A stretch of 21,071 bases of DNA from Agathobacter sp. (GCA_036308285.1 JAXJVZ010000292.1:1-21071), one strand, 5' to 3'. Numbered from the stretch's first letter, positions 68 through 17,936 are shown. Translations and numbers: made by a program. The notes: generated by a model from the sequence alone, not told the origin.

Positions 68-96
68 TTGATTTTAATAAAAAAAAATGATATAAT
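68..96 (+). promoter_or_regulatory. sigma-70-type promoter P1 (-35 TTGATT 68-73, 17-bp spacer, extended -10 TGaTATAAT 88-96), copy 1 of an 8-copy cassette
   Basis: Consensus -35 and -10 hexamers with exactly 17-bp spacing and a TG extension. The conserved downstream leader GTAAGGTTGAGAGACC follows. The first downstream gene starts at 166. Confidence 0.7.
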
Positions 97-165
97 ATAT
101 ATGTAAGGTTGAGAGACCTACACCATAAAAAAATAAATTTTTAATTAACGAAAAGGAGACGCATT

Positions 166-630
166 ATGGAAAAGATTACTAAGAAGCAGATGTTTGAGGG
201 TATGGTCGCTTACTTCCGCGGTGAGGAGACCGAAATCGCTGAGGAGGCTTTCGCTCAGTTCTGTCTGGCTCAGATTGCTGACCTGGACAAGAAGTCCGCA
301 AAGGCCAAGGAGCGCGCAGAGAAGAAGAAGGCAGAGGCTGACGTCCTGACTGACCTGGTCTACTCTGTTATGACCAATAAGTTCCAGACTGGCGCTGAGA
401 TTGCTACCGCTGTTCTGGCTCAGCTGCCCGAGGATACCGATGTGACCGCTGCTAAGGTTACTGCTCGTATCACCAAGCTGGTAAATGCCGCTGCTGTTGT
501 GAAGGAGCAGGTGACTGTTGAAGTTGAGGGTAAGAAGTCCAAGAAGATGGCTTACAAGCTGGCCGAGGGTCAGGACGTCGAGGATGATTCCTACGACGAG
601 TTTGAGAATGAGGACGTTGAGGAGGAGTAA
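166..630 (+). CDS. hypothetical Lys/Glu-rich protein with strongly acidic C-terminal tail (…DDSYDEFENEDVEEE)
   Basis: The ATG at 166 is preceded by an AAGGAG RBS. The ORF is 154 aa with about 50% GC and ctg/ggt/cgt-rich codons. A terminator hairpin follows directly. No family recognised. Confidence 0.6.
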   Translation: MEKITKKQMFEGMVAYFRGEETEIAEEAFAQFCLAQIADLDKKSAKAKERAEKKKAEADVLTDLVYSVMTNKFQTGAEIATAVLAQLPEDTDVTAAKVTARITKLVNAAAVVKEQVTVEVEGKKSKKMAYKLAEGQDVEDDSYDEFENEDVEEE

Positions 631-644
631 TCCTCAAATAGATA

Positions 645-681
645 AAAGCCCTATGAGATTTGCTCATAGGGCTTTCTTTTT
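645..681 (+). terminator. rho-independent terminator (13-bp stem AAAGCCCTATGAG/CTCATAGGGCTTT, loop ATTTG, then CTTTTT)
   Basis: A perfect inverted repeat is followed by a T-tract 15 nt after the TAA at 628-630. Confidence 0.7.
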
Positions 682-771
682 GCTCAATCCAATGGGTCAA
701 TAGGCTGCTCCTGCCGAAGCCGCATGAGTCTCCCGAGATCCCAAATCAATTTAGGCATTTAGAAATTTTGA

Positions 772-800
772 TTGATTTTGTTAAAAAATTATGATATAAT
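772..800 (+). promoter_or_regulatory. sigma-70-type promoter P2 (TTGATT 772-777, 17 bp, TGaTATAAT 792-800)
   Basis: Same cassette as P1. The leader AAGGAAATTAAAAT leads to the ATG at 834. Confidence 0.65.
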
Positions 801-833
801 ATTAATAAAGAATAAACGAAAGGAAATTAAAAT

Positions 834-1883
834 ATGAGTATGCCGGTATGGGAATCTGTCGCATTGAAATTAGCAGATACTCATCAAATTGATGATATTA
901 TTACTAAAGTTGAACTTGGTAAAATTAACTGGAAAACATTGAAAGCCTTAACAGATAGAGAGATTCTTACCAAAGTTGATGAAAATAATTTTAAATTTAC
1001 ATCAATTTATGAAAAGAAAGTGGCTGTAAAGAAATCTAATTCTTCTGATCACACTTTTAAGATTCATAAATCACATAATCAATATTATGCTCAGTATGTT
1101 GAAGAAGGCGCAACAGCTTTAGTAAATAATGAATCCATTCCTAATAATGTAAAGAATTTTTCTTTTAAAGACTGGGAATGTGATTTTATGAATACTGGTA
1201 TTAGTCGAATTGCAGGTTTTCTTAAAAATTTATATGGAGAATCTGCTCGTGCTATTTATACTGGTCGTAGAACTGGCTCTGAAAGTTGTGACATTATTAT
1301 TGACGATCAAGAAGTTGAAATTAAGTATTGTAAGAAGGATAATAGTACATATTTCAATACTTCAGTTAGCTATTTCGATTCATATGGCCTTGAATCTTTA
1401 AAAAGTTATATGATTAAATATGGAGTTTACGATTTATTAGTACCATATTTTGGAGATAGTGTTTTTGAAGGAAAATCTCCAATTGATGCGAAAGAAGCTT
1501 CTGCTTTTACCGAAAAATACGAAGATTTTTATAAGAAAGTTTATCTTCCTAAAGAGCATGAAGCTCGTGCAGCTTATGTTCAAATGGTTTATGAATTTTT
1601 CTCTAATAATCCAGAAGCTCTAGATACTTTTGTACAGGATATGTTAACTAAGGCTCCAGCAGGAAAGCACGTTCCAGACCTGCTTTTAATTTATCATTAT
1701 GATCTTGATGAAATTGTCACTTTTACAAAAGAAGAAATTTTAAATATGTCTGGAGAAATTTTTGAGAAACGTAGAGATTTCACTTTCCAGTTTAAGGGAT
1801 TTCATATTACAATCGCATGGCAGAATTGTACTGGTTTAAATAATCCCACTATTAGAGTATTTATCGATAAGAAAGGAAATTAA
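834..1883 (+). CDS. hypothetical protein, possibly a PD-(D/E)XK restriction-endonuclease-like nuclease (…SCDIIIDDQEVEIKYCKK…) encoded directly upstream of a DNA methyltransferase
   Basis: 349-aa AT-rich ORF. It has a D-x8-E-I-K motif compatible with a PD-(D/E)XK core. Its synteny with the downstream gamma-class MTase suggests the R subunit of a Type II R-M pair. The functional call is weak. Confidence 0.4.
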   Translation: MSMPVWESVALKLADTHQIDDIITKVELGKINWKTLKALTDREILTKVDENNFKFTSIYEKKVAVKKSNSSDHTFKIHKSHNQYYAQYVEEGATALVNNESIPNNVKNFSFKDWECDFMNTGISRIAGFLKNLYGESARAIYTGRRTGSESCDIIIDDQEVEIKYCKKDNSTYFNTSVSYFDSYGLESLKSYMIKYGVYDLLVPYFGDSVFEGKSPIDAKEASAFTEKYEDFYKKVYLPKEHEARAAYVQMVYEFFSNNPEALDTFVQDMLTKAPAGKHVPDLLLIYHYDLDEIVTFTKEEILNMSGEIFEKRRDFTFQFKGFHITIAWQNCTGLNNPTIRVFIDKKGN

Positions 1884-16047: not shown

Positions 16048-16074
16048 GATTTTATTAAAAAAATATGTTATAAT
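16046..16074 (+). promoter_or_regulatory. sigma-70-type promoter P7 (TTGATT 16046-16051, 17 bp, TGtTATAAT 16066-16074)
   Basis: The cassette copy is essentially identical to P4, including the leader …AAGTTAAGGAAAGGATTTGATAGATATG. Confidence 0.7.
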
Positions 16075-16108
16075 ATTTATACAAAGTTAAGGAAAGGATT
16101 TGATAGAT

Positions 16109-16300
16109 ATGTTTAAGATTAAAGGATATATTTTTCATCATGACGAGAATGATAATGTTATCCCCATTGACATTTCTACTGTTCCTGGATGCGAGGAACT
16201 AACTGCTACTGGATATGAAGATGCTCATAGTCAGTTTGAAGGAATTAAACATTATCTATTCCTATTAAGTCCTATCAAAGAAAAGAAGGAGATTGAATAA
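16109..16300 (+). CDS. hypothetical small protein (63 aa)
   Basis: The ATG at 16109 sits at the same leader position as the gene behind P4. The TTG start at 16100 in the ORF track is less likely. Confidence 0.4.
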   Translation: MFKIKGYIFHHDENDNVIPIDISTVPGCEELTATGYEDAHSQFEGIKHYLFLLSPIKEKKEIE

Positions 16301-17016
16301 TGGCAGTATATGTAATGTCTGACCTTCATGGATGTGGTTGGGCTTGGAAGCGAATTAAAAATTTTATTCAACCTGAAGATGAAATAATTTGTTTAGGAGA
16401 TATTATTGATAGGGGTTCTAACTCATGGGAGCTTTTTAAAACTATTTATAATGATCCTCAAGTAACTGTTATTCTTCGTGGCAATCATGAAGATATGATG
16501 ATTAATGCTTGTGAAGATTATATTAATGATGGAATGTGGGATTATTATAGTTATTCTTTATCTTGTTGCAATGGTGGAAGACAAACTCTTGAAGATTGGG
16601 AAAAAGATACTGAACGAGAAGTTTGGTTAAAACGATTAAAAGAATTGCCTACTTGGGAATATTATAGCACTGATAATAATGATATTATTTTAAGCCATGC
16701 CGGTTTCACTCCTTGGTTAAATAATAATGGAGAATGTATAATTCCCCCAGATAGAGATTTAATTTGGGATAGAGATCATTTATTTGATTTATATGAACCA
16801 AATGAAATGGATAATTCAATTATAGTTCATGGGCACACCACAGTAATTCATCTTATTGATTACGTAGATAATATTGAAGAAAGTGTTGATAATATAGAAG
16901 TTGTTACTTATTGTGATGGTCATAAAATTGATATTGATTTATGTACTGTATACACTGATAAAGTAGCAATTTTAAATCTTGATACACTTACTCCAATTTA
17001 TTTTGAGAAGGTGTAA
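16300..17016 (+). CDS. calcineurin-like metallophosphoesterase (lambda-PPase / ApaH-like Ser/Thr phosphatase or dinucleoside-polyphosphatase)
   Basis: Motifs SDLHG (D-x-H), LGDIIDRG (GDxxDRG), GNHE and VHGHT occur in canonical order. The start overlaps the upstream stop (TAATG). Confidence 0.65.
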   Translation: MAVYVMSDLHGCGWAWKRIKNFIQPEDEIICLGDIIDRGSNSWELFKTIYNDPQVTVILRGNHEDMMINACEDYINDGMWDYYSYSLSCCNGGRQTLEDWEKDTEREVWLKRLKELPTWEYYSTDNNDIILSHAGFTPWLNNNGECIIPPDRDLIWDRDHLFDLYEPNEMDNSIIVHGHTTVIHLIDYVDNIEESVDNIEVVTYCDGHKIDIDLCTVYTDKVAILNLDTLTPIYFEKV

Positions 17017-17019
17017 TTA

Positions 17020-17889
17020 ATGAACGAAGAGTGGAAATGGATAAAAGGTTTTGAAAATTAGTATCAAGCTTCTAATTTAGGTAGAATTAGAAGCTTTAAA
17101 GCCAATAAAAATGGTACAATATTAATGGGAAATACTCTTAAAGATGGTCGGGTTAGAGTAAATTTAAATGGTAAAAAGTATTTACTTCATAGATTAGTTT
17201 TAATGGCTTTTTGTCCAGAATTGGAAACTAATGAAAATTGTTTGGTTTTACATAAAGACGGAAATCCATCAAATAATACATTAGAAAATTTAAAATGGGG
17301 AAGTTATAAAGAAAATGCGAATGATGAACTAATGCATCAAAGATGTAAAATTAAAGTAAAAAATTCTAAATAGCATAGAGAAGAATAGCAAAATTTAATC
17401 ATAGAAGACGAGCTGTGGAAAGATATTTAGGGATATGATGGAGATTATCAAATATCTAACTATGGACGAGTTAAATCTTTAAAAAGAAAAAACCCTTTAA
17501 TTTTATCTCCAATTTTAGGTAGAACTGAAGATTATTATTCTATAGGACTAACTAAAAATGGAAATAAATCACATTATTCAATAGACAGATTAGTTGCTGA
17601 GGCTTTTATTCCTAATCCAAATAATTACCCAGAAGTTAATCATATTGATGAAAATACAAAAAATAATAATGCTAATAATTTAGAATGGGTTACTCATTCA
17701 CAAAATATTAAGCATAGTGCTTATCGTCAAAGTTATCCAGTAGCTCAATATGATAAAAATTATAATTTAATAGCAAAATATAAAAGTGTAGCAGAAGCAT
17801 CTAGGCAAACTGGGTATGCTCGTTCAAATATTAAATCAGCCATTGAAAGAAATGGAACTTGTCATGGATATATATGGAAATATTTATAA
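17020..17889 (+). CDS. HNH homing endonuclease with two tandem NUMOD4-HNH modules (I-HmuI-like) and a C-terminal HTH; four in-frame TAG codons
   Basis: The first module is EEWKWIKGFEN(Q)YQASNLGRIRS … HRLVLMAFCP … LVLHKDGNPSNNTLENLKW. The second module is ELWKDI(Q)GYDGDYQISNYGRVKSL … IDRLVAEAF … EVNHIDENTKNNNANNLEWVTHSQN. The C-terminus is …SVAEASRQTGYARSNIKSAIERNGTCHGYIWKY. Only TAGs interrupt the 289-codon frame, which ends with TAA. The ORF track shows only an 82-aa piece. Confidence 0.65.
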
Positions 17890-17907
17890 CTAGATAAAAA
17901 ATCTTAA

Positions 17908-17936
17908 TTGATTTTTATAAAAAAATATGATATAAT
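17908..17936 (+). promoter_or_regulatory. sigma-70-type promoter P8 (TTGATT 17908-17913, 17 bp, TGaTATAAT 17928-17936)
   Basis: Cassette copy with leader ATATATATAAAGTTAAGAAAGGAATGAATCCA before the ATG at 17969. Confidence 0.7.

What the first reader, a model, noticed from the sequence alone, without database searches (positions are those of the whole stretch)
68..17936. Eight near-identical copies of a ~60-bp promoter-plus-leader cassette drive every plus-strand operon
The consensus is TTGATTTTtATaAAAAAATATGaTATAATATATATACAAAGTTAAGGAAAGGA. Copies lie at 68-96, 772-800, 3770-3798, 7394-7422, 10477-10505, 12800-12828, 16046-16074 and 17908-17936. The -35, the 17-bp spacer and the extended -10 are almost invariant. 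So is the initial transcribed sequence ending in the RBS. Such uniformity across structural, metabolic and selfish genes implies that a single host sigma-A holoenzyme transcribes the whole region. The conserved leader (ATATATACAAAGTTAAG) could be a recognition site for a phage-encoded RNA-binding, antitermination or translational factor, or a recombination hotspot for module exchange. P4 and P7 are identical through the start codon context, including TTGATA-G-ATATG, so units may be swapped by recombination at the cassette.
Basis: seen in the sequence. Interest (0 to 1): 0.5.

Follow-up and report, generated by a model that had tools for sequence, protein, structure and literature searches.

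The report
Repeated phage promoter-plus-leader start cassette
Eight copies of one standard 'start here' signal (a bacterial-type promoter joined to a ribosome-binding leader) head the gene blocks of this stretch of a large gut phage, and the same signal is shared by hundreds of sites in related phages; this is a familiar kind of phage early-promoter cassette, not a new mechanism.

Summary
Eight same-strand copies lie exactly where stated, and none is expected by chance.

Each copy is a textbook Gram-positive sigma-A promoter: TTGATT, a 17-bp T-run/A-run spacer, TATG-n-TATAAT, then an AT-rich discriminator. A leader follows that is unstructured and purine-rich, and carries the Shine-Dalgarno AAGAAAGGA. 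The ATG sits about 33 nt after the -10. Intrinsic terminators stand upstream of four of the eight copies and abut two of them.

The cassette is not private to this window. Hundreds of copies occur in 100-400 kb gut and rumen phage contigs. Proteins in those contigs are only 35-80% identical to the window's, so the cassette is under selection and is not a recent duplication.

Across the family:
- The first gene after a cassette avoids in-frame TAG. These phages recode TAG.
- Cassettes also head tRNA arrays, including the amber-suppressor tRNA.
- A cassette almost always precedes a phage-encoded SigA-like sigma factor. That gene is not in this window.
- Gene indels against the closest relative abut cassettes.

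The closest known analogue is the PeSL promoter-terminator cassette of T4-like phages. I found no support for the leader as a target of an RNA-binding factor. No structural genes were identified.

Verdict: a new member of a known kind, of moderate interest.

The parts
68..168 (+). Cassette P1. -35 TTGATT at 68-73, -10 TATAAT at 91-96. Long leader whose first bases form a hairpin (GUAAGGU...ACCUAC). True RBS AAAGGAG, ATG at 166 (acidic 154-aa protein).
   Evidence: centroid hairpin -5.6 kcal/mol; whole-leader fold z -0.95, not significant; homologues of this gene in relatives keep the cassette and, in three of six, a GTAAGG..CCTTAC hairpin.
645..675 (+). Intrinsic terminator closing unit 1, about 95 nt upstream of P2.
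   Evidence: 13-bp stem, 6 GC pairs, T-run
772..836 (+). Cassette P2. Promoter core conserved, leader divergent (AAAGAATAAACGAAAGGAAATTAAAAT), ATG at 834. Heads a low-GC block: an unknown 349-aa protein, an NPPF-motif methyltransferase-like gene and a GmrSD_N/DUF262 gene.
3770..3835 (+). Cassette P3. -35 TTGAAA, leader ATAAAGTTAAGAAAGGA, ATG at 3833 (837-aa protein with major-vault-protein shoulder and repeat domains).
   Evidence: homologues of this gene in L053 and L100 keep a cassette upstream.
6353..6392 (.). Bidirectional intrinsic terminator between the vault-like gene (+) and the minus-strand homing-endonuclease unit.
   Evidence: 18-bp stem on both strands
7394..7458 (+). Cassette P4. 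Leader ACAAAGTTAAGAAAGGAATTGATATAG, ATG at 7456.
   Evidence: leader unstructured
10444..10468 (+). Intrinsic terminator whose T-run runs into the -35 of P5 (composite terminator-promoter).
10477..10604 (+). Cassette P5. Conserved start of the leader (ACAAGGTTAAGAGAGG) forms the 5' arm of a 5'-proximal hairpin. True RBS GAGAGGAG, ATG at 10602 (nucleotidyltransferase).
   Evidence: (whole 93-nt leader -18.2 kcal/mol, z -1.84)
12664..12693 (+). Intrinsic terminator closing unit 5, about 105 nt upstream of P6.
12800..12867 (+). Cassette P6. Leader ACAAAGTTAAGGAAAGGAATTGAAAAAAAT, ATG at 12865. Heads the NAD salvage block (NAMPT, macro, NadE, NADAR).
   Evidence: orthologous cassette in L134.
16017..16047 (+). 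Intrinsic terminator overlapping the -35 of P7 (composite terminator-promoter).
16046..16111 (+). Cassette P7. Leader ACAAAGTTAAGGAAAGGATTTGATAGAT, ATG at 16109 (63-aa ORF, then a phosphatase and an HNH homing endonuclease).
   Evidence: in L134 nearly the same leader up to the ATG (one G fewer, one substitution) is fused directly to the phosphatase gene.
17908..17962 (+). Cassette P8, the exact consensus core. Leader ATAAAGTTAAGAAAGGA, ATG at 17960 (small membrane protein with a TAG at codon 10).
   Evidence: orthologous cassette in L134.

Best explanation
Each copy is a composite start signal for transcription and translation in a large TAG-recoding phage of gut Clostridia-type Firmicutes.

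DNA part: a very strong sigma-A-class promoter. It has an A/T-rich upstream region, -35 TTGATT, a 17-bp spacer made of a T-run followed by an A-run, the Gram-positive '-16' TRTG motif with the extended -10 TG, a perfect TATAAT, and an AT-rich discriminator.

RNA part: transcription should start about 7 nt after the -10. It gives a ~25-nt purine-rich leader without structure. Its AAGAAAGGA pairs with the extended anti-Shine-Dalgarno of 16S rRNA, and the ATG sits at a fixed ~33 nt from the -10.

Terminators: where the preceding unit ends in a hairpin, the T-rich -35 region doubles as the terminator's U-tract.

Who reads it (inferred): bacterial core RNA polymerase carrying a SigA-type sigma. That is the host's SigA at the start of infection. 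Later it is probably also the phage's own SigA-like factor lacking region 1.1, which relatives encode directly behind a cassette, giving a self-reinforcing loop.

What it marks: units that can be expressed under the host's standard genetic code (TAG-poor first genes) and tRNA arrays. These look like early or accessory functions.

Secondary effect: the ~75-bp identical junctions give homology for gain, loss and exchange of gene modules, as PeSLs do in T4-like phages.

Shown from sequence: the anatomy, the copy number, family-wide conservation, position relative to genes and terminators, TAG avoidance, and the linkage to the sigma gene.
Inferred: promoter activity, the start site, timing, which sigma is used, and recombination.
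For: Copies and anatomy:
- Eight co-oriented copies, 0 expected by chance.
- They are the only sites with an extended -10 and at least 10 of 12 hexamer matches.
- Strong terminators stand upstream of P2, P5, P6 and P7.

Distribution:
- None of the 76 genome-collection hits is in a record titled as a cultured isolate; all are MAG or metagenome-bin contigs.

Conservation:
- Positions not used for the search are conserved in 153 non-redundant copies: ATwTATAnAA at 80-92%, purine-rich to about +52.
- In copies found through the -10 and discriminator alone, the -35 is TTGAnn in 80% and TTGATT in 51%. The T-run/A-run spacer persists.
- Relatives' proteins are only 35-80% identical, yet the 29-nt core is ~86% identical between genomes.
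- Orthologous cassettes are kept in front of the vault-like gene, gene 1 and NAMPT.

Geometry and structure:
- The ATG lies 30-34 nt after the -10 in the modal class, 102 of 286.
- The six short leaders fold with dG about 0.
- A GC-rich hairpin of at least 7 bp ends within 8 nt of TTGA in 26% of 451 cassettes, against 2% at random positions.

Genetic code and tRNAs:
- The first ORF after a cassette has an in-frame TAG in 8 of 60 cases, against 219 of 560 other ORFs (Fisher p = 3.6e-5).
- 28 cassettes directly head tRNAs.
- Among 7 suppressor-tRNA loci, 4 (3 distinct contexts, since L098 and L001 hold the same sequence) have tRNA(CUA) 61-259 nt downstream of a cassette.

Sigma factor:
- Relatives encode a ~300-aa SigA-like sigma. 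Its best matches among solved structures are Firmicutes SigA, E = 3e-77 to 3e-74.
- The gene lies directly behind a cassette in 28 of the 80 best sigma loci in IMG/VR; all 28 are among the low-GC ones.

Module exchange:
- Against the closest relative L134 (78-84% nt identity), four gene-content differences abut cassettes. The P7 leader is fused to different first genes.
Against: - There are no transcript data, so the start site, strength and timing are untested.
- The host is unknown. The Clostridia assignment rests on MAG bin labels and on Shine-Dalgarno use.
- The window itself holds no sigma gene.
- Strong conservation of the spacer and of +1 to about +18 goes beyond what SigA recognition is known to need. 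It persists in front of tRNAs, where no ribosome binding is required. So part of the cassette has a role that this model explains only loosely, as promoter escape or shared descent.
- Some genes inside cassette-driven units carry in-frame TAG, including the first ORF after P8. This blurs the 'early, standard-code' reading.
- The TAG comparison relies on crude ORF calling.
- Indels must fall in intergenic DNA anyway, so their closeness to cassettes is weak evidence for recombination at cassettes.
Confidence: 0.75

Rival explanations
1. The cassette is mainly the cognate promoter of the phage's own SigA-like sigma factor, forming a private sigma-promoter pair. Host SigA fires it only weakly, just enough to make the first phage sigma. 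The phage sigma then redirects host core polymerase to cassettes. The family-specific features (TTGATT instead of TTGACA, the T-run/A-run spacer, ATATAT and the conserved initial transcribed bases) would be the phage sigma's specificity determinants.
For: - A SigA-like gene without region 1.1 lies directly behind a cassette in 7 of the first 8 loci examined (L098 and L001 hold the same sequence) and in 28 of the 80 best sigma loci in IMG/VR.
- The phage sigmas carry recurrent changes at DNA-contact positions: the W433 equivalent is usually Y, the T440 equivalent is S in seven of the eight aligned (G in L165), and the H455 equivalent is N in the clade nearest the window.
- TTGATT outnumbers TTGACA by 51% to 5.6% in copies found without reference to the -35.
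- The promoter core stays constant across phages whose bins carry labels from several Clostridia and Bacilli families. That fits co-evolution with a phage-borne factor.
Against: - The sigma gene itself needs a cassette, so host SigA must read cassettes at least once.
- All recognition regions of the phage sigma remain SigA-like, and the cassette matches the ordinary SigA consensus very well.
- K or R at the R584 equivalent does not co-vary with -35 bases 5-6.
- No sigma gene lies in this window.
Confidence: 0.3
2. The cassettes are kept primarily as recombination substrates, that is, PeSL-type mobile regulatory cassettes. Identical ~75-bp junctions let gene modules be excised, inserted and swapped between co-infecting relatives. 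Their uniformity comes from gene conversion.
For: - Leaders are slightly more alike within a genome than between genomes: 0.577 against 0.540, 5.5 SD above permutation.
- Four indels or replacements against L134 abut cassettes, and one leader is joined at the ATG to different genes.
- The order of the vault-like gene and the nucleotidyltransferase gene is inverted in L053 and L052 relative to the window and L100.
- GC content jumps between units, from 25-34% to 44-52%.
- PeSLs have the same anatomy and this role (PMC4122927).
Against: - The within-genome excess of similarity is small.
- The core is conserved across deeply diverged genomes and at orthologous sites. That points to purifying selection on function, not homogenisation.
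- Intergenic location alone predicts that indels will lie near cassettes.
- No recombination junction or minicircle was observed.
Confidence: 0.25
3. Part of the cassette is a binding site for a phage-encoded regulator. One option is an operator in the spacer for a dimeric repressor that shuts off early transcription (TTTTTATAAAAA is a perfect palindrome). The other is the first reader's idea that the leader RNA is a target for an RNA-binding, antitermination or translational factor.
For: - The spacer is conserved even when it was not used to find the copies.
- A perfect palindrome of at least 10 nt occurs in the spacer of 52% of copies, against 21% after shuffling.
- The initial transcribed bases are conserved in front of tRNAs as well.
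Against: - The palindrome excess largely reflects a T-run followed by an A-run, and the central bases vary.
- The short leaders are unstructured and purine-rich.
- The leader varies between clades.
- No candidate regulator was identified.
- The Shine-Dalgarno sequence and the discriminator explain most of the conservation.
Confidence: 0.12
4. The conserved start of the leader acts as a 5' stabiliser of the transcript. A Shine-Dalgarno-like sequence or a hairpin at the very 5' end would block 5'-to-3' decay by RNase J, as the STAB-SD element and 5' stem-loops do in Bacillus. This could hold together with the main explanation.
For: - In P1 and P5 the real ribosome-binding site is far downstream, yet the conserved leader start is kept and forms the 5' arm of a 5'-proximal hairpin.
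- Three of the six gene-1 homologues in relatives keep a GTAAGG..CCTTAC hairpin whose stem sequence differs from the window's.
- Several cassettes that head tRNAs show similar hairpins.
- STAB-SD and 5' stem-loop stabilisers are recalled from my own knowledge (Agaisse and Lereclus 1996; the ermC and aprE leaders).
Against: - The P1 hairpin is weak: its z-score is not significant.
- Most cassettes have a working ribosome-binding site there, so no separate stabiliser is needed to explain the sequence.
- The host's RNase complement is unknown.
Confidence: 0.2
5. The repeat is not functional. It would be a chance AT-rich match, an assembly artefact, or a small non-autonomous mobile element.
For: The region is AT-rich, and generic sigma-70-like matches are common: 89 found against 71 expected.
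Against: - 0 of 100 shuffles give even one match to the 29-mer.
- All copies are intergenic, co-oriented with the genes, and at a fixed distance from start codons.
- Copies occur in independent assemblies from many samples.
- No terminal inverted repeats or target-site duplications are present.
Confidence: 0.02

Closest known systems
PeSL (promoter-early stem-loop) composite promoter-terminator cassettes of T4-like myoviruses (Arbiol et al. 2010, PMC2839356; Comeau et al. 2014, PMC4122927)
   Same: - Many near-identical copies in regions rich in accessory genes.
- The same anatomy: an AT-rich stretch, a sigma-70-type -35 and -10 with 17-bp spacing, a stem-loop just upstream, and a Shine-Dalgarno sequence and start codon at the 3' end.
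- Subgroup-specific consensus variants.
- Location next to indels and replacements between close relatives.
   Different: - A different phage lineage and host phylum (Firmicutes-type signals, TAG recoding).
- The stem-loop is not conserved in sequence. It abuts the promoter in only ~26% of copies, 2 of 8 in the window.
- The spacer and the initial transcribed bases are much more conserved.
- Copies also head tRNA genes and a phage SigA-like gene.
- Recombination or minicircle formation has not been shown.
Early promoter families of large lytic phages read by host primary-sigma holoenzyme: T4 early promoters, T5 early promoters such as PN25, SPO1 early promoters (own knowledge: Liebig and Rueger 1989; Gentz and Bujard 1985)
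   Same: - Dozens of very similar, very strong primary-sigma promoters.
- Conservation extends beyond the two hexamers into the A/T-rich upstream region, the spacer and the initial transcribed sequence.
- They head early, host-takeover and tRNA genes.
   Different: - The consensus here is the Gram-positive type with TRTG and an extended -10.
- The -35 is TTGATT.
- The leader and Shine-Dalgarno sequence are standardised at a fixed distance from the ATG.
- The consensus is shared across a far more diverged set of genomes.
- Timing is not known.
Phage-encoded RpoD-like sigma factors of jumbo phages (Iyer et al. 2021, PMC7824862) and phage sigma factors of Bacillota phages (Schwartz et al. 2022, PMC9429907)
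   Same: Relatives of this phage encode a near-complete RpoD/SigA-like sigma and no RNA polymerase was seen in the loci examined. This implies recruitment of the host core enzyme.
   Different: - Here the sigma is closest to housekeeping SigA, not to sporulation sigmas. It lacks region 1.1.
- Its gene sits behind the same cassette that heads many other genes.
- Its promoter specificity is unknown.
- The gene is not in the window.
STAB-SD and 5' stem-loop mRNA stabilisers of Bacillus (own knowledge: Agaisse and Lereclus 1996)
   Same: A Shine-Dalgarno-like purine tract or a hairpin within the first ~20 nt of the transcript. It is kept even where translation starts far downstream (P1, P5).
   Different: There is no evidence on mRNA stability. 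In six of the eight copies the sequence is simply the working ribosome-binding site.

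Membership tests
Sigma-70/SigA-type promoter (Gram-positive form) | -35 hexamer resembling TTGACA | tested here: met
   TTGATT in 7 copies and TTGAAA in 1, that is 4-5 of 6. Family-wide, TTGAnn is found in 80% of copies detected without reference to the -35.
Sigma-70/SigA-type promoter (Gram-positive form) | -10 hexamer TATAAT at 17 +/- 1 bp from the -35 | tested here: met
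   Perfect TATAAT and a 17-bp spacer in 8 of 8.
Sigma-70/SigA-type promoter (Gram-positive form) | Extended -10 TG / '-16 region' TRTG motif | tested here: met
   TATG-n-TATAAT in 7 of 8 and AATG-n in P1, so TG is present in all 8. The TRTG motif is recalled from my own knowledge (Voskuil and Chambliss 1998).
Sigma-70/SigA-type promoter (Gram-positive form) | Intergenic position, co-oriented with and upstream of the gene | tested here: met
   All 8 in the window. The modal distance from the -10 to the ATG is 30-34 nt in 286 family copies.
Sigma-70/SigA-type promoter (Gram-positive form) | Transcripts start 6-9 nt downstream of the -10; initiation depends on holoenzyme | not testable with these tools
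   Needs 5'-end mapping or in vitro transcription.
PeSL cassette (T4-like phages) | Repeated sigma-70-like early promoter with an AT-rich upstream region | tested here: met
PeSL cassette (T4-like phages) | Stem-loop (terminator) immediately upstream of the promoter | tested here: inconclusive
   The stem-loop abuts P5 and P7 and lies ~100 nt upstream of P2 and P6. None was detected at P1, P3, P4 or P8. Family-wide the figure is 26% against 2% at random positions.
PeSL cassette (T4-like phages) | Shine-Dalgarno sequence and start codon at the 3' end of the element | tested here: met
   6 of 8 in the window; the distance is fixed family-wide.
PeSL cassette (T4-like phages) | Association with indels and replacements between closely related genomes | tested here: inconclusive
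   Four differences against L134 abut cassettes. No control against other intergenic sites was run, and only one pair was compared.
PeSL cassette (T4-like phages) | Cassette-to-cassette recombination producing minicircles or deletions | not testable with these tools
   Needs infected cells or raw reads.
PeSL cassette (T4-like phages) | Host genome is a T4-like myovirus | not tested
   No T4 core gene was seen in the window, and there is no near DNA match in the phage collection. The phage's lineage was not established. For that reason I file this as 'works like PeSL', not as a member.
Intrinsic (Rho-independent) terminator | GC-rich hairpin followed by a T-run at the end of a gene block | tested here: met
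   645-675, 6353-6392, 10444-10468, 12664-12693 and 16017-16047.
TAG-recoded (code 15-like) phages of Firmicutes (Borges et al., 10.1101/2021.08.26.457843) | Genes with in-frame TAG that are intact only if TAG is read through, together with a suppressor tRNA(CUA) | tested here: met
   Six window ORFs carry 1-10 in-frame TAGs, and Pfam domains match beyond them. tRNA(CUA) is present in related loci but not in the window.

The most novel reading that the evidence does not exclude
The cassette and the phage's region-1.1-less SigA paralogue form a self-amplifying, portable transcription system. Host SigA fires the first cassettes, one of which makes the phage sigma. That sigma prefers the family-specific features (TTGATT, the T/A-tract spacer, ATATAT and the conserved initial bases). 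It then channels host core polymerase to cassette-headed units, including the tRNA arrays and the amber-suppressor tRNA. In this reading one promoter class sets both the transcriptional takeover and the timing of the genetic-code switch, across a whole family of large gut phages.
Probability: 0.25. Interest if true: 0.65.

Novelty: new member of a known kind. Interest (0 to 1): 0.38.

Why it matters
- The cassette gives a ready sequence marker for one temporal or regulatory class of genes in a large, uncultured family of TAG-recoding gut and rumen phages. The marker is TTGATTTT-N12-ATG-N-TATAAT-ATWTATA.
- With it, early or standard-code units, tRNA arrays and the phage sigma gene can be picked out from sequence alone.
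- It links promoter class to the code-switch model. First genes after cassettes avoid TAG, yet the suppressor tRNA often sits behind the same cassette. That can be tested with metatranscriptomes.
- The promoter and leader are also a compact, probably very strong expression module for Clostridia-type hosts.
- If the phage sigma has its own specificity, the pair would be a natural orthogonal sigma-promoter system.

Tried and rejected
- tRNA and Rfam searches of the window found nothing relevant. The only weak Rfam matches overlie terminator-bearing regions. The GC-richer spacers before P2 and P6 stay unexplained.
- A near-identity DNA search of cultured and deposited phages found no match. A protein search with the vault-like gene found only three uncultured huge-phage records at 41% identity. 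So no isolate with transcript data is available.
- An exact-protein lookup of the vault-like protein did not find the source contig.
- PHROGs gave no structural or timing annotation for the first genes.
- I tested whether K or R at the sigma R584-equivalent co-varies with -35 positions 5-6. It does not, so I dropped the idea that this residue explains TTGATT.
- A conserved RNA structure in the short leaders is rejected, because dG is about 0.
- The recent-duplication, MITE and chance explanations are rejected on family-wide conservation, fixed geometry and absence of element ends.
- The paper on NAD genes in gut jumbo phages (PMC11662467) contains none of the search terms used, including 'promoter', 'sigma', 'motif', 'stop codon' and 'TATAAT'.

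Full report
1. THE OBSERVATION

The 29-nt consensus TTGATTTTTATAAAAAAATATGATATAAT, allowing up to 3 mismatches, matches seven times. The matches are at 68, 772, 7394, 10477, 12800, 16046 and 17908, all on the + strand. None of 100 dinucleotide-preserving shuffles gave a match. The eighth copy, at 3770, has TTGAAAAT but keeps the 17-bp spacing, the TG and TATAAT.

In a generic sigma-70 scan the window has many weak matches, 89 against 71 expected. The eight cassettes are the only sites that combine at least 10 of 12 hexamer matches with a TG before the -10.

The alignment shows TTGA, the A-run, ATG-n-TATAAT-AT and several leader positions invariant in all eight. The leader A(C/T)AAAGTTAAG(G)AAAGGA is well kept in P3, P4, P6, P7 and P8. 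It diverges in P2. In P1 and P5 only its first ~20 nt are kept.

2. ANATOMY

Read from the sequence, each copy has these parts in order:
- A weakly conserved A/T-rich stretch, often ...AAAAATCTTAA.
- -35 TTGATT.
- A 17-bp spacer made of a T-run followed by an A-run.
- TATG at -17 to -14. This is the Gram-positive '-16 region' TRTG motif, recalled from my own knowledge (Voskuil and Chambliss 1998). It includes the extended -10 TG.
- A perfect TATAAT.
- The discriminator ATATAT (or ATTTAT).
- A likely start at the A about 7 nt downstream.
- A purine-rich leader whose AAGAAAGGA is complementary to the extended anti-Shine-Dalgarno end of 16S rRNA.
- An ATG 23-36 nt after the -10 in the six short-leader copies.

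The six short leaders have no predicted structure, with dG about 0. P1 and P5 have long leaders. In them the conserved start forms the 5' arm of a 5'-proximal hairpin, and the true ribosome-binding site lies 45-70 nt further on.

Strong intrinsic terminators lie at 645-675, 6353-6392, 10444-10468, 12664-12693 and 16017-16047. Those before P5 and P7 run straight into the -35, so the T-rich -35 region serves as their U-tract.

All but two genes in the window are on the + strand, and each + strand gene block begins with a cassette.

3. CONTEXT

The window holds no tRNA and no Rfam family. It has no near match among deposited phages.

Six ORFs are intact only if TAG is read as sense. They are two zinc-ribbon homing endonucleases, an HNH/NUMOD endonuclease, an NPPF-motif methyltransferase-like gene, a GmrSD_N/DUF262 protein and a small membrane protein. 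They carry up to 10 in-frame TAGs, and Pfam domains match beyond them. This is therefore a TAG-recoding phage of the kind described by Borges et al. (bioRxiv 10.1101/2021.08.26.457843).

Other genes in the window:
- a protein with major-vault-protein domains
- an SPFH/flotillin-like protein
- an NAD salvage block: NAMPT, macro, NadE, NADAR
- a nucleotidyltransferase
- a cell-wall hydrolase
- a kinase-like P-loop protein
- two metallophosphoesterases

None was recognisable as a virion component. The region looks like an accessory, host-takeover part of the genome.

4. THE CASSETTE OUTSIDE THE WINDOW

Many are in 100-400 kb contigs with several copies each.

A 36-nt pattern that includes the discriminator hit 76 stretches in the species-representative genome collection. 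All are MAG or metagenome-bin contigs, from animal and human gut samples where the record title names a source. Most are labelled Clostridia (Acutalibacteraceae, Oscillospiraceae, Ruminococcus) or Bacilli, and several are 150-176 kb. None is in a record titled as a cultured isolate. I read these as phage contigs binned with bacteria, and as a hint about the host.

Relatives share the window's genes at only 35-80% amino-acid identity and 65-84% nucleotide identity.

In 153 non-redundant copies, positions that played no part in the search are conserved. ATwTATAnAA follows the -10 at 80-92%, and a purine-rich tract runs to about +52.

In copies found only through TATAATATnTAT, the -35 at the correct spacing is TTGAnn in 80%, TTGATT in 51% and TTGACA in 5.6%. 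The T-run, the A-run, T18 and T20 of the spacer are kept.

The 29-nt core is 88.5% identical within genomes and 85.8% between genomes.

Cassettes are kept at orthologous places:
- before the vault-like gene
- before gene 1, together with its long leader
- before NAMPT and at the P7 and P8 positions in the closest relative L134

This rules out a recent private duplication and shows purifying selection across the family.

5. FAMILY-WIDE REGULARITIES THAT BEAR ON FUNCTION

a. Geometry. In 286 copies followed by an ORF preceded by a Shine-Dalgarno sequence, the start codon lies 30-34 nt after the -10 in the modal class.

b. Terminators. A GC-rich hairpin of at least 7 bp ends within 8 nt of TTGA in 26% of 451 cassettes, against 2% at random positions.

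c. Genetic code. In loci with TAG readthrough, the first ORF after a cassette has an in-frame TAG in 8 of 60 cases, against 219 of 560 for other ORFs preceded by a Shine-Dalgarno sequence. That is 0.74 against ~4.5 TAG per 1000 codons, Fisher p = 3.6e-5 (the cruder version is). In the window, 7 of 8 first genes are TAG-free. Under the Borges model, in which standard-code genes are expressed before the code switch, this points to early expression. The ORF calling was simple, so the size of the effect is approximate.

d. tRNAs. Relatives carry large tRNA arrays that include tRNA(CUA). 28 cassettes directly precede tRNAs, and they keep the leader to about +18 but often lose the GG of the Shine-Dalgarno sequence. 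Among 7 suppressor-tRNA loci, 4 (3 distinct contexts, since L098 and L001 hold the same sequence) have tRNA(CUA) 61-259 nt downstream of a cassette. So the promoter-proximal part of the 'leader' is conserved for a reason other than translation. It could be promoter escape, 5'-end protection, or shared descent.

e. Sigma factor. Among the first genes after cassettes is a ~300-aa sigma factor.
- Its best matches among solved structures are S. aureus, B. subtilis and C. difficile SigA, with E = 3e-77 to 3e-74. NCBIfam places it nearest RpoD.
- It spans regions 1.2 to 4.2 and lacks region 1.1. The recognition helices are SigA-like, with recurrent changes: the W433 equivalent is usually Y, the T440 equivalent is S in seven of the eight aligned, and the H455 equivalent is N in the clade nearest the window.
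- The gene lies directly behind a cassette in 7 of the first 8 loci (L098 and L001 hold the same sequence), and in 28 of the 80 best sigma loci in IMG/VR. All 28 are among the low-GC ones. The high-GC loci, which are other phages or host DNA, have none.
- K or R at the R584 equivalent does not co-vary with -35 bases 5-6.
- RpoD-like sigmas in jumbo phages without their own polymerase are known (PMC7824862).
- The window has no sigma gene. Its closest IMG/VR relative by the vault-like gene (L053) has one 4 kb upstream of that gene.

f. Clade flavours. Leaders are slightly more alike within genomes than between them: 0.577 against 0.540, 5.5 SD above permutation. Recognisable variants are ACAAAGTTAAG here, and GTAAGATAAAG or AGAAAATAAAA elsewhere.

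6. MODULE EXCHANGE

The closest relative is L134, a 10-kb contig in an Acutalibacteraceae bin at 78-84% nucleotide identity. Against it the region 11.6-19.3 kb is syntenic, with these gene-content differences:
- L134 has a different gene, with an NMNAT-like sequence motif (not searched against any library), where the window has the cell-wall hydrolase and terminator. The right-hand boundary is P6.
- L134 has an extra gene between NADAR and P7.
- The P7 leader is nearly the same up to the ATG (one G fewer, one substitution). In L134 it is fused to the phosphatase gene, and in the window to a 63-aa ORF.
- The HNH endonuclease just upstream of P8 is absent from L134.
- A ~700-nt insertion in L134 between NAMPT and the macro gene does not abut a cassette.

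The order of the vault-like gene and the nucleotidyltransferase gene is inverted in L053 and L052 relative to the window and L100. GC content changes sharply between units, from 25-34% to 44-52%.

This pattern is what PeSL-type shuffling would give. But indels must fall between genes in any case, so I treat recombination at cassettes as a plausible secondary role that is not shown.

7. EXPLANATION AND RIVALS

Best supported (confidence 0.75): a composite start cassette for transcription and translation. It is read by bacterial core polymerase with a SigA-type sigma, and it heads early or accessory standard-code units and tRNA arrays.

Which sigma is used is open. Host SigA must act first, because the phage sigma gene itself needs a cassette. 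A later takeover by the phage sigma, possibly with a preference for the family-specific features, is attractive but untested (0.3 as a dominant mechanism).

Other readings, several of which can hold together with the main one:
- Recombination as the main reason for maintenance: 0.25.
- A regulator binding site in the spacer or the leader: 0.12.
- A 5' stabiliser role for the start of the leader: 0.2.
- Artefact, chance or mobile element: 0.02.

The short leaders are unstructured, and their conservation is explained by the discriminator, the start site and the Shine-Dalgarno sequence.

8. COMPARISON WITH WHAT IS KNOWN

The closest described elements are the PeSLs of T4-like phages. They have an AT-rich stretch, a sigma-70 promoter, an upstream stem-loop, and a Shine-Dalgarno sequence and ATG at the 3' end. 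They are repeated in hyperplastic regions and lie next to indels (PMC4122927; PMC2839356).

The cassette also resembles the early-promoter families of T4, T5 and SPO1, whose conservation extends into the spacer and the initial transcribed region (own knowledge).

It differs in several respects:
- The lineage and host are different.
- The stem-loop is facultative and not conserved in sequence.
- The spacer and the initial transcribed bases are unusually constant across deeply diverged genomes.
- It heads tRNAs.
- It is linked to a phage SigA-like gene.

I file it as working like a PeSL or early-promoter cassette, not as a PeSL member.

9. VERDICT

The feature is real and functional-looking, and it is ordinary in kind: a new member of the class of repeated phage early-promoter/RBS cassettes. 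Three family-level facts raise the interest somewhat: the extreme conservation, the link to TAG-free first genes and suppressor tRNAs, and the cassette-driven SigA-like sigma. Interest 0.38.

Noticed in passing
window 1886-2755, 2742-3758, 6371-7117(-), 8122-9057, 17020-17889, 17960-18217: Six ORFs are intact only if TAG is read as an amino acid (1-10 in-frame TAGs each), and Pfam domains match beyond the TAGs. The TAG-containing genes are mostly low-GC selfish or defence-type genes: homing endonucleases, a methyltransferase-like gene and a GmrSD_N/DUF262 gene. The higher-GC genes are TAG-free. No suppressor tRNA lies in the window, but related loci carry tRNA(CUA).
   Followed up: partly
window 7990-8064, 8122-9057 and 9057-9362: A zinc-ribbon homing endonuclease with 10 in-frame TAGs sits between a 24-codon fragment (MKLWIDDLRDPP...) and a full-length cREC_REC-domain gene (MIKLWIDDIRLPP...). 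The fragment duplicates the 5' end of that gene. This looks like the scar of a homing or replacement event.
   Followed up: partly
window 19007-19598: A metallophosphoesterase gene is split by a +1 frame change at GGT TGA C (19043-19049). The site lies exactly inside a 9-bp hairpin (19039-19060). Frame 0 gives MSKIFLTSDTHFG-stop, and the next frame continues DHDREFLWGPRGF... It could be a sequencing error, a pseudogene or a programmed frameshift.
   Followed up: no
window 166-630, 3833-6346, 19642-21071 versus 834-3758, 6371-9057, 16109-17889: Neighbouring genes fall into two very different composition classes: 47-52% GC with CTG/GCT/AAG-type codons, against 25-34% GC. The boundaries lie at cassettes and terminators. 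This may reflect expression level, different origins, or dependence on phage tRNAs.
   Followed up: no
window 3833-6346 and 19642-21071: An 837-aa protein with major-vault-protein shoulder and repeat domains, and an SPFH/flotillin-like protein with a long coiled-coil tail. The vault-like protein has 41% identical homologues in uncultured huge phages of 462-735 kb (LR756500, LR756501, LR756503). It is cassette-driven in relatives too. Its role in a phage is unknown.
   Followed up: partly
window 12865-16035; L134 625-1185: An NAD salvage and ADP-ribose block (NAMPT, macro domain, NAD synthetase, NADAR). In the closest relative L134, a gene with an NMNAT-like motif (MVGVILFRAQPFHKGHLNM...; not searched against any library) stands where the window has a cell-wall hydrolase and terminator, immediately upstream of the cassette that heads NAMPT. 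This resembles the NAD-reconstitution counter-defence sets reported for phages.
   Followed up: partly
window 7110-7283(-), 6371-7117(-), 7304-7334: The only minus-strand unit is a 57-aa HTH-like ORF (one TAG) overlapping the start of a homing endonuclease, at 25% GC. It is preceded by an inverted repeat, TTATACATTTTGT-TT-ATACAAAATGTATAA, which could be its operator or promoter region.
   Followed up: no
window 17960-18004: The first ORF after P8 has a TAG at codon 10, followed four codons later by an in-frame ATG (18002). Under the standard code this would give a 9-aa peptide and possibly re-initiation. Under the recoded code it gives the full 85-aa membrane protein.
   Followed up: no
window 1-67, 690-770, 12694-12790: GC-richer non-coding spacers lie between a terminator (or the window's edge) and cassettes P1, P2 and P6. 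They have no ORF, no tRNA and no Rfam match. Apart from one short 77.6% match to L018 reaching back to window position 12753, upstream of P6, no blastn match against the first 120 loci extends into them. Their function is unknown.
   Followed up: partly
related loci L025, L071, L178, L117, L161, L144, L058, L004, L098/L001 (leaders between a cassette and a tRNA): A recurring motif, ...(C)A(C/A)A(T/A)ACAGCAA..., occurs in the longer leaders upstream of phage tRNAs, including the leader of a suppressor tRNA. It may be a processing signal or a small RNA element.
   Followed up: no
related locus L039 3758-3830: ARAGORN calls a tRNA with anticodon UUA (an ochre-suppressor type) in a 190-kb relative. 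Other relatives have tRNA(CUA).
   Followed up: no
related loci L018, L053, L160, L187, L165, L028, L001, L010 and L203-L267: Relatives encode a ~300-aa SigA/RpoD-like sigma factor without region 1.1. The W433 equivalent is usually Y and the T440 equivalent is S in seven of the eight aligned. The gene almost always lies directly downstream of a cassette. One 402-kb IMG/VR contig holds two copies (100% and 76% identical to the L053 protein), so it may be a chimera of two phages.
   Followed up: yes
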